Part shown: positions 24,001-27,000 of the stretch, piece by piece
Position numbering within the stretch: the first letter of the stretch is position 1
Layout: each line of letters begins with the position of its first letter
IMG/VR virus record: IMGVR_UViG_2880361019_000007
DNA from: a virus
Lineage: Duplodnaviria > Heunggongvirae > Uroviricota > Caudoviricetes
Length of the DNA: 46,314 nucleotides
Strand: one strand, 5' to 3'
Program-made: the position numbers

Positions 24001-27000
24001 GGTTCAGGAATCAGTGATGCGCATTGAGGCCGGACTGAGCACGTATGAGAAAGAGCTGGCGCTGATGGGCGAGGATTATCAGGACATTTTCCGCCAGCAG
24101 GTCAGGGAATCTGCAGAGCGGGAAAAAGCCGGACTCTCACGTCCGGTGTGGATAGCGCAGGCGTATCAGCAGCAGATAGCGGAGAGTCGCAGGCCGGAAG
24201 AGGAGACAACACCACGTGAGACGTAATCTTTCACACATTATTGCCGCAGCATTCAATGAACCGCTGCTTCTGGAGCCCGCCTATGCGCGGGTTTTCTTTT
24301 GCGCGCTCGGACGCGAGATGGGGGCAGCAAGTCTTTCGGTACCACAACAGCAGGTACAGCTTGATGCTCCCGGAATGCTGGCTGAAACGGACGAGTACAT
24401 GGCCGGAGGTAAACGACCGGCCCGTGTTTACCGGGTGGTGAACGGTATTGCGGTACTGCCGGTGACCGGCACGCTGGTGCACCGGCTGGGGGGGATGCGG
24501 CCATTTTCCGGAATGACTGGCTATGACGGCATTGTTGCCTGTCTTCAGCAGGCAATGGCAGATAGCCAGGTGCGGGGCATACTGCTGGACATTGACAGTC
24601 CGGGCGGGCAGGCCGCCGGCGCGTTTGACTGCGCTGACATGATTTACCGCCTCCGTCAGCAGAAGCCGGTCTGGGCACTGTGCAATGACACGGCCTGTTC
24701 TGCAGCCATGCTGCTGGCGTCGGCCTGCTCCCGACGGCTGGTTACCCAGACATCCCGTATCGGCTCCATTGGCGTGATGATGAGCCATGTCAGCTATGCC
24801 GGTCATCTGGCGCAGGCCGGTGTGGATATCACGCTGATTTACTCAGGGGCGCACAAGGTGGATGGCAATCAGTTTGAAGCCTTACCGGCAGAGGTTCGCC
24901 AGGACATGCAGCAGCGCATTGATGCGGCGCGCCGGATGTTTGCCGAAAAAGTGGCGATGTTTACCGGTCTGTCTGTTGATGCCGTCACGGGAACAGAGGC
25001 CGCTGTTTTTGAAGGTCAGTCCGGCATTGAGGCCGGGCTGGCGGATGAATTAGTCAATGCGTCGGATGCCATCAGTGTGATGGCCACGGCGCTGAACAGT
25101 AATGTCAGAGGAGGCACTATGCCGCAATTAACTGCAACGGAAGCCGCCGCGCAGGAGAACCAGCGAGTGATGGGGATCCTGACATGCCAGGAAGCGAAAG
25201 GACGTGAACAGCTTGCCACGATGCTGGCAGGACAACAGGGCATGAGCGTTGCACAGGCCCGGGCGATTCTGGCCGCGGCGGCACCGCAGCAGCCGGTGGC
25301 ATCCACGCAGAGTGAAGCCGATCGCATTATGGCGTGTGAAGAAGCGAACGGTCGTGAACAACTGGCGGCAACGCTGGCGGCGATGCCGGAGATGACGGTG
25401 GAAAAAGCCCGCCCGATCCTGGCTGCTTCACCGCAGGCGGATGCCGGACCCTCACTCCGTGATCAGATCATGGCACTGGATGAGGCAAAAGGGGATGAGG
25501 CGCAGGCTGAACAGCTGGCTGCCTGCCCGGGAATGACTGTGGAGAGCGCCCGGGCTGTGCTGGCTGCGGGATCAGGTAAGGCAGAACCGGTCTCTGCATC
25601 CACAACCGCCCTGTTTGAACGCATCATGGCGAACCATTCACCGGCAGCGGTACAGGGTGGCGTGCCACAGACGTCAGCAGACGGTGATGCGGACGTGAAA
25701 ATGCTCATGGCCATGCCATGAAGTCAGTGCTGATCATCAACAGGAGGTTTTTACAATATGGTAACGAAAACCATCACTGAACAGCGTGCGGAAGTACGTA
25801 TTTTTGCCGGTAATGATCCGGCTCATACCGCCACAGGCAGCAGCGGGATTTCCTCGGCAACACCGGCACTGACGCCCTTGATGCTGGATGAAGCCAGCGG
25901 GAAACTGGTGGTCTGGGACGGACAGAAAGCCGGTAGTGCAGTTGGCATACTGGTACTGCCGCTTGAAGGCACAGAGACGGTACTGACCTATTACAAGTCG
26001 GGGACCTTTGCGACGGAGGCAATCCGCTGGCCTGAAAGTGTGGATGAACACAAAAAGGCAAATGCCTTTGCCGGCAGTGCCCTGAGTCACGCGGCGCTGC
26101 CGTAACACGTTATCAGGCCACCGCGGTGGCCTGACTGATTGTGCACAGAAAACCCCCAGCTAGGCTGGGGGTTCTGGAAAGCTTTCAGCTTTGAGCCAGT
26201 TATTAAAACCCCTTTTGATTTGTTAAAACACCTTGCGGTCTGGCAACTGCAAGTGTCAAACAAGAAATCAAAAGGGGGTCCCAATGGGGAACGAAAAGAG
26301 CTTAGCGCACACCCGATGGAACTGTAACTATCACATAGTTTTTGCGCCAAAATACCGAAGACAGGTGTTCTACAGAGAGAAGCGTAGAGCAATAGGCAGT
26401 ATTTTGAGAAAGCTGTGTGAGTGGAAAAGCGTACGGATTCTGGAAGCTGAATGCTGTGCAGATCATATCCATATGCTTGTGGAGATCCCGCCCAAAATGA
26501 GCGTATCCGGCTTTATGGGATATCTGAAAGGGAAAAGCAGTTTGATGCTTTACGAGCAGTTTGGGGATTTGAAATTCAAATACAGGAACAGGGAGTTCTG
26601 GTGCAGAGGGTACTACGTCGATACGGTGGGTAAGAACACGGCGAAGATACAGGATTACATAAAGTACCAGCTTGAAGAGGATAAAATGGGAGAGCAGTTA
26701 TCGATTCCCTATCCGGGCAGCCCGTTTACGGGCCGTAAGTAAGGAAGTTGGATGCAAATGTCAGATCGTGTGCGCCTGTTAGGGCGCGGCTGGTAAGAGA
26801 GCCTTACAGGCGCATTTGAAAAACCTCCGGCTATGCCGGAGGATATTTATTGTGCACAGAAAACCCCCAGCTAGGCTGGGGGTTCTGGAAAGCTTTCAGC
26901 TTTGAGCCAGTTATTAAAACCCCTTTTGATTTGTTAAAACACCTTGCGGTCTGGCAACTGCAAGTGTCAAACAAGAAATCAAAAGGGGGTCCCAATGGGG

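What the first reader, a model, noticed from the sequence alone, without database searches (positions are those of the whole stretch)
25120..25560. Tandem peptide repeats in the scaffold (Nu3-like) part of C
The C-terminal third of the protease/scaffold contains three or four degenerate ~45-aa repeats (…QEAKGREQLATMLAGQQGMSVAQARAILAAA…, …EEANGREQLAATLAAMPEMTVEKARPILAAS…, …DEAKGDEAQAEQLAACPGMTVESARAVLAAG…). This points to repeat expansion in the scaffolding domain.
Basis: seen in the sequence. Interest (0 to 1): 0.2.

Follow-up and report, generated by a model that had tools for sequence, protein, structure and literature searches.

The report
Triplicated scaffold module ("Tri boxes")
The head protease/scaffold gene of this phage-21-type E. 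coli prophage carries three tandem copies of a small helical module that phage lambda and most relatives have once; the triplication is real and old, is found in about a third of complete E. coli genomes, and was already annotated in phage 21.

Summary
ORF 24216-25721 (+) encodes a 501-aa lambda-gpC-like S49 prohead protease. Its C-terminal 200 aa hold three tandem 47-53-aa repeats (pairwise z = 9.7-12.5 against shuffles, 53-59% aa identity). A fourth copy is not supported.

The gene is 98.3% identical to phage 21 genes 5/6. GenBank M81255.1 already marks these segments as "Tri1 box / Tri box / Tri3 box" ("function unknown; putative"). The array plus a 46-aa tail is essentially the whole nested scaffold protein (ATG 25119, strong Shine-Dalgarno site), the Nu3 analogue.

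Each unit is predicted to be a compact three-helix mini-domain joined by disordered linkers. The same unit is single-copy in 98 of 100 unit-bearing representatives of the closest gpC relatives, lambda-type proteins included. Three copies occur in a 21/Gifsy-1-like clade (Escherichia, Shigella, Salmonella, Trabulsiella, Providencia). A 4-copy E. coli variant shows more recent expansion.

Selection acts on the protein, not the DNA (third-codon identity 34-38%; dN/dS 0.06-0.36). The full-length three-unit region is in 1,864 of 5,426 complete E. coli genomes.

Likely role (inferred, untested): a multivalent interaction module of the scaffold, also used to co-assemble the protease. Already known; low interest.

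The parts
24216..25721 (+). Gene 5 / lambda C homologue: 501-aa prohead protease-scaffold fusion (GTG start, stop included)
   Evidence: ORF list. phrog_53 'head maturation protease' E = 4e-228 over aa 1-501. 98.3% nt identity to phage 21 gene 5; 11 aa differences from phage 21.
24651..25094 (+). S49 serine-peptidase domain (aa 146-293 by Pfam; TIGR00706 SppA_dom covers aa 78-291)
   Evidence: PF01343 E = 5.9e-35. TIGR00706 E = 2e-31. PDB SppA chains 3rst/4kwb match this part only.
25107..25114 (+). Shine-Dalgarno sequence AGAGGAGG, 4 nt upstream of the internal in-frame ATG
   Evidence: Read directly. Annotated as the RBS of gene 6 in both phage 21 records. Lambda has AGGAGG before the homologous Met.
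25119..25721 (+). Nested in-frame gene 6 / Nu3 analogue: 200-aa scaffold protein (20.5 kDa, pI 4.55) = 10-aa leader + 3 units + 46-aa tail
   Evidence: Phage 21 annotation mapped onto the window. Start context. Mass and pI. phrog_8940 'capsid assembly protein' and phrog_8399 'head scaffolding protein' each match the C-terminal region in three stretches.
25149..25298 (+). Unit 1 (Tri1), aa 312-361: AQENQRVMGILTCQEAKGREQLATMLAGQQGMSVAQARAILAAAAPQQPV. The GenBank 'Tri1 box' maps to 25186-25289.
   Evidence: HMM domain aa 314-355, 59.7 bits. Closest to unit 1 of other multi-copy proteins; lambda-type single units in turn match unit 1s best.
25308..25439 (+). Unit 2 (Tri2), aa 365-408: QSEADRIMACEEANGREQLAATLAAMPEMTVEKARPILAASPQA. 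The GenBank 'Tri box' maps to 25326-25436.
   Evidence: HMM domain aa 371-406, 48.4 bits. This is the segment that tblastn aligns to lambda's single unit (query aa 70-107).
25449..25580 (+). Unit 3 (Tri3), aa 412-455: PSLRDQIMALDEAKGDEAQAEQLAACPGMTVESARAVLAAGSGK. The GenBank 'Tri3 box' maps to 25467-25580.
   Evidence: HMM domain aa 417-451, 44.2 bits. It has Asp427 (Ala in phage 21) where the family has a near-invariant Arg.
25581..25718 (+). C-terminal tail (aa 456-501), with the short helix LFERIM (aa 466-471, nt 25611-25628) and an acidic end ...DGDADVKMLMAMP.
   Evidence: Not significantly similar to a unit. A comparable short motif and an acidic tail follow the single unit in lambda and many other homologues. 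Low AF2 confidence. It is the fastest-evolving segment.

Best explanation
SHOWN. This is the phage-21-type version of the lambda C/Nu3 head-assembly gene pair. One reading frame gives a 501-aa S49 prohead protease. From an internal SD-preceded ATG at 25119 it also gives a 200-aa scaffold protein. The shared C-terminal part contains three tandem copies of a ~45-aa module, the 'Tri boxes' annotated in phage 21. That module is the conserved core of the scaffold region in this whole protease family and is normally present once. The triplication arose in the ancestor of a 21/Gifsy-1-like clade of enterobacterial prophages and has since been kept by purifying selection on the protein.

PREDICTED. 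Each unit folds, possibly only marginally or on binding, into a small three-helix bundle. The bundles are joined by Pro/Ala/Gln-rich flexible linkers, like beads on a string.

INFERRED, not tested. The unit is a protein-protein interaction module of the scaffold. For lambda Nu3, interactions with itself, gpC, the portal and the capsid protein E are reported. Its presence in both gene products lets a few protease molecules co-assemble with the many scaffold molecules inside the procapsid. Three copies make each scaffold chain multivalent and longer (200 aa, against 131 aa from the homologous start in lambda). The most conserved, charged E-A-x-G-R-E loop is the likely contact surface.

INFERRED. 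The array probably arose by unequal recombination between the short '(D/E)R(I/L)M' helix that precedes the core and the similar one that follows it.
For: Identity:
- 98.3% nt identity over all 1506 nt to phage 21 genes 5/6.
- M81255.1 carries repeat_region features Tri1/Tri/Tri3 box and a nested gene 6 with its RBS. OL657228.1 calls the two products capsid protease/scaffolding protein and scaffolding protein.
- Gene order is portal (PF05136), S49 protease, gpD-family decoration protein (PF02924), then E-family capsid protein (PF03864).
- Internal start with AGAGGAGG. The homologous Met in lambda has AGGAGG.

Repeat reality: z = 9.7-12.5; three HMM domains.

Unit as a conserved family core:
- Single copy in 98 of 100 unit-bearing proteins among the 150 closest 50%-identity representatives.
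- Single copy in 28 of 34 species-representative genome loci.
- The architecture is constant: unit followed by a tail of median 53 aa.

Old, conserved triplication:
- Three units in E. coli, Shigella, E. albertii, Trabulsiella, Providencia and Salmonella proteins, down to ~56% identity.
- Units are largely position-orthologous.
- Copy number tracks the phylogeny of the whole head module.
- All sampled E. coli matches span exactly 603 bp; 1,864 of 5,426 genomes carry the region.

Selection on the protein: third-position identity is 34-38% while aa identity is 53-59%. dN/dS per unit is 0.06-0.36 wherever dS is informative.

Fold:
- Single-unit AF2 model: pLDDT 88.9, pTM 0.64, three helices.
- Whole gp6 model: units pLDDT 75-83, linkers and tail low, pTM 0.28.

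Interactions of lambda Nu3 with C, itself, B and E are listed in PMC3224144.
Against: - No solved structure contains the unit, and no Pfam or NCBIfam model covers it.
- Lambda gpNu3 is described in the title of Medina et al. 2011 as 'intrinsically disordered' (seen only in reference lists). The confident AF2 fold may therefore overstate the stability of the free unit.
- Unit 3 of the window and of phage 21 has lost the near-invariant Arg, so the three units may not be functionally equivalent.
- In other scaffolds (P22, 80alpha; from memory) the capsid-binding element is the extreme C-terminus. Here that would point to the tail rather than to the units.
- The recombination origin is inferred from short motif resemblance only.
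Confidence: 0.6

Rival explanations
1. Spacer or filler role. The extra units have no specific partner. They only add length and mass to the scaffold chain, setting core volume or the distance between an N-terminal element and the capsid-binding C-terminal tail.
For: Units are separated by flexible linkers with no fixed mutual arrangement (pTM 0.28). Conservation falls from unit 1 to unit 3. Unit 3 has lost the near-invariant Arg in 21-type sequences. Where lambda lacks units 2 and 3 it has a ~34-aa longer unstructured linker before its single unit.
Against: A mere spacer would not be expected to keep the E-A-K-G-R-E loop and the hydrophobic pattern in all three units across lineages that are only ~56% identical, nor dN/dS of 0.06-0.36 in every unit.
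Confidence: 0.2
2. Neutral, tolerated duplication. The triplication is a historical accident of unequal recombination with no selective value, carried along with a successful head module.
For: Copy number simply follows the phylogeny of the head module. Variants with 2 and 4 copies exist. One copy suffices in lambda and most relatives.
Against: The three-copy state is retained at deep divergence (~56% identity, dS saturated), with each copy under purifying selection. Its length is uniform in all sampled matches among 1,864 E. coli genomes. Unselected copies would decay or be lost by the same recombination that made them.
Confidence: 0.12
3. The repeat matters at DNA or RNA level rather than as protein, for example as protein-binding sites, a recombination hotspot or a regulatory RNA. 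The 1993 record annotates DNA 'boxes', and a later record places CII-site pattern matches inside the gene.
For: M81255.1 annotates them as repeat_region features. OL657228.1 marks two TTGYN6TTGY matches on the minus strand within gene 6. These fall at window 25124-25137 and 25358-25371.
Against: Tandem Repeats Finder finds no DNA repeat. Nucleotide identity is 55-66% with third-codon identity of only 34-38%, and fewer than half of identical residues use the same codon. The CII pattern occurs 5 times in the window against 9.7 expected by chance.
Confidence: 0.02
4. Chance similarity caused by Ala/Gln/Glu-rich low-complexity composition; no true repeat.
For: The region is Ala-rich, and the Pfam scan of it gives only noise-level matches.
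Against: Composition-preserving shuffles never reach the observed scores (0/2000, z = 9.7-12.5). A profile dominated by single-copy homologues hits each unit at 44-60 bits.
Confidence: 0.01

Closest known systems
Phage 21 genes 5 and 6 with 'Tri1 box / Tri box / Tri3 box' (GenBank M81255.1; complete genome OL657228.1)
   Same: The same gene. It is 98.3% nt identical over 1506 nt with no indels and 11 aa differences. It has the same nested start and RBS, and the same three units at the same positions.
   Different: Seven of the 11 aa differences lie in the scaffold part (aa 346, 373, 427, 466, 469, 470, 484). The window copy sits in a prophage whose shp/D-to-capsid-gene spacer carries IS200 and IS1 insertions.
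Lambda gpC / Nu3 (prohead protease and nested scaffold protein)
   Same: Homologous S49 protease (about 60% identity in the protease part). The gene order is the same, and there is an in-frame nested scaffold gene with an SD-preceded Met at the homologous 'GG(T/R)M' position. The conserved unit (ENSRIMGILNCEEAHGREEQARVLAETPGMTVKTARRILAAAPQ) is followed by an 'LDRLM' helix and an acidic tail.
   Different: Lambda has one unit, preceded by a ~34-aa longer linker. The product from the homologous start is 131 aa (13.4 kDa), against 200 aa (20.5 kDa) here.
Gifsy-1 and other Salmonella gpC homologues; Trabulsiella and Providencia prophage homologues
   Same: Three units in the same order, with units largely position-orthologous to those in the window. 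The nested Met is conserved.
   Different: Only 56-61% identical in the scaffold part. Their unit 3 keeps the canonical K-G-R-E loop that 21-type sequences have lost.
Four-unit E. coli variant (P0029; locus L117, GCA_032727965.1)
   Same: Same head module (capsid protein 83%, decoration protein 76% identical). Same unit and tail.
   Different: It has four units. Units 2-4 are each other's nearest relatives (77-84% aa) and are detectable as a 138-bp DNA tandem repeat (3.7 copies, 77% matches). This points to a more recent expansion or homogenisation.
Helical coat-binding domains of other phage scaffolds (P22 gp8 C-terminal helix-turn-helix; phi29 gp7), and tandem three-helix binding modules such as staphylococcal protein A
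   Same: Functional and fold-level analogy only. These are small helical modules that mediate scaffold-capsid contacts through charged residues (PMC11922011). Generic three-helix bundle matches include protein A domains.

Membership tests
Lambda-type gpC/Nu3 prohead protease with nested scaffold | S49 (SppA-like) serine-peptidase domain | tested here: met
   PF01343 E = 5.9e-35, 120.9 bits against a cutoff of 24.9. TIGR00706 E = 2e-31. The Ser in '..CSA..' and the Lys in 'HKVDGN' align with lambda; that these are the catalytic residues is from memory and was not tested.
Lambda-type gpC/Nu3 prohead protease with nested scaffold | Position in a lambda-type head operon: portal, then protease, then decoration protein, then E-family major capsid protein | tested here: met
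   PF05136 portal at 22634-24226 and PF02924 gpD-family protein at 25758-26105. PF03864 capsid protein at 28361-29389. IS elements are inserted between the last two.
Lambda-type gpC/Nu3 prohead protease with nested scaffold | In-frame internal translation start giving a separate scaffold protein identical to the C-terminus of the protease | tested here: inconclusive
   The sequence signals are present: ATG 25119 with AGAGGAGG 4 nt upstream, a Met conserved in homologues, and the same position in lambda with AGGAGG. It is annotated in phage 21. Actual translation cannot be shown with these tools.
Lambda-type gpC/Nu3 prohead protease with nested scaffold | Conserved C-terminal scaffold unit (ExxRIxxILxxxEAxGRExxAxxLAxxxxMxxExAxxxLxxxP) followed by a ~50-aa tail | tested here: met
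   The unit HMM hits 100 of 150 closest representatives, and the window protein three times. The tail is 46-50 aa by these boundaries, against a family median of 53.
Phage 21 'Tri box' array (gene 6) | Three tandem units at the annotated Tri1, Tri and Tri3 positions within the nested gene | tested here: met
   Colinear 1506-nt alignment without indels at 98.3% identity. Annotated boxes map to window 25186-25289, 25326-25436 and 25467-25580, and coincide with the three units.
Scaffold coat-binding helix-turn-helix (P22 gp8 type) | Sequence or structural similarity to the solved coat-binding domain | tested here: not met
Scaffold coat-binding helix-turn-helix (P22 gp8 type) | Direct binding of the module to the major capsid protein | not testable with these tools
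   This needs complex prediction or biochemistry. A lambda Nu3-E two-hybrid interaction is reported for the whole protein only (PMC3224144).

The most novel reading that the evidence does not exclude
The Tri unit is the elementary binding module, folding on binding, of the very large S49-protease/scaffold family, contacting the capsid protein, the portal or itself. On this reading its copy number (1 in lambda, 2 to 4 in enterobacterial variants) is an evolvable 'valency dial'. Unequal recombination keeps changing it in E. coli prophages, altering the stoichiometry or kinetics of procapsid assembly without changing capsid geometry.
Probability: 0.3. Interest if true: 0.35.

Novelty: already known. 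Interest (0 to 1): 0.12.

Why it matters
It matters little as a discovery. The triplication has been on record for phage 21 since the M81255.1 annotation, and it sits in about a third of complete E. coli genomes.

Its modest value is as a natural experiment. The scaffold of the lambda family is poorly understood structurally: no solved structure contains this unit, and lambda Nu3 is reported as largely disordered. Nature here offers 1-, 2-, 3- and 4-unit versions of the same module attached to closely related capsid proteins. Comparing them could show which part of Nu3-type scaffolds binds what, and whether valency affects assembly.

The survey also shows that no Pfam or NCBIfam model matched the unit, which is present in many prohead proteases of this family. 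That is an annotation gap.

Tried and rejected
- **DNA tandem-repeat search** of 24000-26500: nothing found, because the repeat is visible only in protein.
- **Self-BLASTP** returned only the diagonal and was replaced by Smith-Waterman with shuffles.
- **Pfam and NCBIfam scans** of the scaffold part: only noise-level matches (HHH, E = 0.039) or none.
- **PDB sequence search** with the gp6 family profile: only SppA, through protease residues present in some alignment rows.
- **Foldseek of the whole gp6 model against PDB:** meaningless, with E > 1 and a pTM of 0.28.
- **BFVD fold search:** only other S49 prohead proteases, and none below E = 0.001.
- **The search for homologous proteins with the unit profile (A4)** scored only 87 candidates, all short fragments, so it was useless for a copy-number census.
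- **The first protein search with gp6** returned mostly partial proteins.
- **The viral-contig scan** returned 80 near-identical three-unit loci and added no diversity.
- **The idea that lambda Nu3 and gp6 are both about 200 aa**, with length compensation by triplication, was dropped. The 201-aa lambda annotation starts at a Met with a poor SD. The Met homologous to the gp6 start has AGGAGG and gives 131 aa.
- **CII-site pattern matches inside the gene** are at or below chance level.
- **Literature:** the 1993 phage 21 paper and Medina et al. 2011 could not be retrieved.
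Full report
**1. What is at the coordinates**

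The finding lies in ORF 24216-25721 (+ strand, GTG start, 501 aa). Pfam places an S49 peptidase domain at aa 146-293 (E = 5.9e-35). The upstream ORF is a lambda-family portal protein, and the downstream ORF is a gpD-family head-decoration protein. PHROGs assigns the whole protein to phrog_53, 'head maturation protease' (E = 4e-228). The interval 25120-25560 corresponds to aa 302-449.

**2. Is the repeat real?**

Yes, for three units.
- Local alignment scores between the segments are 78, 71 and 86. Composition-preserving shuffles give about 24 +/- 4.5, so z = 9.7-12.5, and 0 of 2000 shuffles reach the observed score.
- The cores are 53-59% identical in amino acids.
- The motif starts at aa 318, 371 and 418, giving periods of 53 and 47 aa.
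- A profile HMM refined on the unit-bearing representatives, almost all single-copy homologues, finds three separate domains in the window protein at 59.7, 48.4 and 44.2 bits.

The supposed fourth copy is only a short helix, 'LFERIM' (aa 466-471), with no significant similarity to a unit (z = 2.0, 0.2 and -1.6). A comparable short motif follows the single unit in lambda ('LDRLM') and many other relatives. It is therefore a family feature of the tail, not a decayed repeat.

At DNA level the repeat is invisible. Tandem Repeats Finder reports nothing. Nucleotide identity is 55-66% and third-codon-position identity only 34-38%.

**3. It is already described**

The gene is 98.3% identical over its full 1506 nt to genes 5/6 of phage 21, without indels. 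The two proteins differ at 11 residues.

GenBank M81255.1 ('Bacteriophage 21 head gene operon') carries three repeat_region features, 'Tri1 box', 'Tri box' and 'Tri3 box', noted 'function unknown; putative'. They lie inside a nested gene 6 that starts at an internal in-frame ATG with its own ribosome-binding site. Mapped to the window, these are 25186-25289, 25326-25436 and 25467-25580, and the nested gene starts at 25119.

The 2021-era genome record OL657228.1 annotates the two products as 'capsid protease/scaffolding protein' and 'scaffolding protein'. From memory, M81255 accompanies Smith and Feiss, Gene 1993. I could not retrieve that paper.

**4. Anatomy**

The internal ATG (25119) is preceded by AGAGGAGG with a 4-nt spacer. 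The product is 200 aa, 20.5 kDa, pI 4.55. It consists of a 10-aa leader, the three units and a 46-aa acidic tail, so the repeat array is essentially the whole scaffold protein.

In lambda the homologous Met ('SGGRM') is also preceded by AGGAGG and gives a 131-aa, 13.4-kDa product. The start annotated in GenBank records (5132, 201 aa) has a poor SD.

Aligned with lambda gpC, the window protein lacks about 34 aa of lambda's linker. It has two extra units inserted between the first unit and the tail.

**5. Predicted structure**

A single unit, modelled with 49 diverse homologous units, gives a confident three-helix mini-domain (pLDDT 88.9, pTM 0.64). In the full 200-aa model each unit keeps this fold (pLDDT 75-83). 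Linkers and tail are low-confidence and there is no fixed inter-unit geometry (pTM 0.28).
- The viral structure library returns only other S49 prohead proteases, and none below E = 0.001.
- No solved structure contains the unit.
- No Pfam or NCBIfam model matches it.

One caveat applies. Lambda gpNu3 is called 'intrinsically disordered' in the title of Medina et al. 2011, which I saw only in reference lists. The free unit may therefore be only marginally stable.

**6. Comparison with homologues**

- Among the 150 closest representatives (50%-identity clusters) of the whole protein, out of 31,292 hits, 100 carry the unit. Of these, 98 have one copy and 2 have three: the window protein and P0096.
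- In species-representative genomes, three units occur in E. coli, Shigella flexneri, E. albertii, Trabulsiella guamensis and Providencia alcalifaciens. A Bradyrhizobium ORF has two units. The other 28 loci have one.
- Gifsy-1 and other Salmonella homologues also have three.
- Copy number follows the phylogeny of the head module. Multi-copy loci have a protease at least 68% and a capsid protein at least 79% identical to the window's, where those genes could be compared. Single-copy loci have at most 61% and 60%.
- Unit 1 is closest to unit 1 of the other multi-copy proteins, and lambda-type single units in turn match unit 1s best. Units 2 and 3 are largely position-orthologous across the 21, Salmonella, Trabulsiella and Providencia forms. 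The triplication therefore predates these lineages.
- An E. coli variant (P0029, locus L117) has four units. Its units 2-4 are each other's nearest relatives (77-84% aa) and form a DNA-level tandem repeat with a 138-bp period, 3.7 copies and 77% matches. That indicates a later expansion or homogenisation.
- A few database proteins look like in-frame two-unit recombinants, for example P0018 with the junction GMSVEQ|ARPIL. Most are singletons from metagenome assemblies and could be artefacts.

**7. Selection**

In comparisons with informative divergence, every unit has dN/dS well below 1.
- Against L083: 0.10, 0.06 and 0.09.
- Against Trabulsiella: 0.14, 0.25 and 0.36.

Conservation decreases from unit 1 to unit 3 to the tail. 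Together with the low third-position identity between units, this places the constraint on the protein and excludes a DNA-level role. The CII-site pattern matches annotated in one phage 21 record occur no more often than chance: 5 observed against 9.7 expected.

**8. Prevalence**

The 603-nt scaffold region is present at full length in 1,864 of 5,426 complete E. coli genomes, with up to 5 places per genome. All sampled full-coverage matches span exactly 603 bp. The 80 best viral-contig matches are 96-100% identical three-unit copies.

**9. How it most likely works**

Shown: this is a nested protease/scaffold gene pair whose shared C-terminus is a triplicated, conserved module.

Predicted: three three-helix beads on flexible linkers.

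Inferred: the module is the interaction unit of the scaffold.
- For lambda Nu3, interactions with itself, gpC, the portal and, by two-hybrid, the capsid protein E are listed (PMC3224144).
- Sharing the module between the two products lets the protease co-assemble into the scaffold core.
- Three copies give a longer, multivalent chain.
- The near-invariant E-A-x-G-R loop is the best candidate contact surface, by analogy with the charge-based helix-turn-helix contacts of P22 and phi29 scaffolds (PMC11922011).

Unit 3 of 21-type sequences has lost the conserved Arg: Asp427 here and Ala in phage 21. The units may therefore not be equivalent.

The short '(D/E)R(I/L)M' helices flanking the ancestral core offer a plausible substrate for the unequal recombination that created the array. 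This last point is inference only.

**10. Rivals**

- Spacer or filler role: 0.2.
- Neutral duplication: 0.12.
- DNA-level function: 0.02.
- Compositional artefact: 0.01.

The last two are effectively refuted. The first two are weakened by deep conservation of three selected copies, but they cannot be excluded without experiments.

**11. Verdict**

The observation and the interpretation are correct, but the feature is already annotated in phage 21 and is common in E. coli prophages. It is ordinary and of low interest. New here are the copy-number survey (1 to 4 units), the dating of the triplication, the evidence for protein-level selection, and a confident fold prediction for a unit that no Pfam or NCBIfam model matched.

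Noticed in passing
window 26138-28338: The spacer between the decoration gene (25758-26105) and the major capsid gene (28361-29389) holds two tandem IS200-type copies 711 bp apart. They have Y1_Tnp transposase ORFs at 26233-26742 and 26944-27330. The second copy is split by an IS1 (InsA/InsB ORFs 27265-27962, minus strand), and its remainder resumes at 28018-28338. Many E. coli genomes have one IS200C at this site. The insertions probably block late transcription into the capsid gene, so this prophage may be defective.
   Followed up: partly
L118 (lambda OR974322.1) 926 vs 1136; record positions 5132 vs 5342: Lambda nu3 is annotated as 201 aa, starting at a Met with a weak SD. The Met homologous to the phage 21 gene 6 start is preceded by AGGAGG and gives 131 aa (13.39 kDa). 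The common GenBank annotation of nu3 may use the wrong start. The PHROG profiles mirror both lengths (phrog_8940 = 201, phrog_8399 = 131).
   Followed up: partly
L117 410-918 (E. coli GCA_032727965.1, protein P0029): A four-unit allele of the same scaffold region. Units 2-4 are 77-84% identical to each other and are detectable as a 138-bp DNA tandem repeat. This is evidence that the array is still expanding or being homogenised in some prophages.
   Followed up: yes
proteins P0009, P0016, P0018, P0021 (alignment A2): Apparent in-frame deletion alleles with about two units. Their junctions lie at homologous positions of neighbouring units (for example GMSVEQ|ARPIL), as expected from unequal recombination. 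Most are single sequences from metagenome or read-archive assemblies and could be assembly artefacts.
   Followed up: no
L104 2561-3148 (Bradyrhizobium sp. SSUT77): A stand-alone 195-aa ORF with two copies of the unit (56% identical to each other). There is no recognisable S49 protease, capsid or decoration gene within 2.5 kb. This looks like an independent duplication in a different genetic context.
   Followed up: no
window 25494-25496 (aa 427, unit 3): The family's near-invariant Arg of the E-A-K-G-R-E loop is Asp in the window and Ala in phage 21. Salmonella, Trabulsiella and Providencia keep Arg in unit 3. Unit 3 of the 21 lineage may have lost or changed its function.
   Followed up: partly
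window 25124-25137 and 25358-25371 (minus strand): These are the two 'CII binding site' pattern matches (TTGYN6TTGY) annotated in phage 21 record OL657228.1 inside gene 6. The pattern occurs 5 times in the window against 9.7 expected by chance, so they carry no weight.
   Followed up: yes
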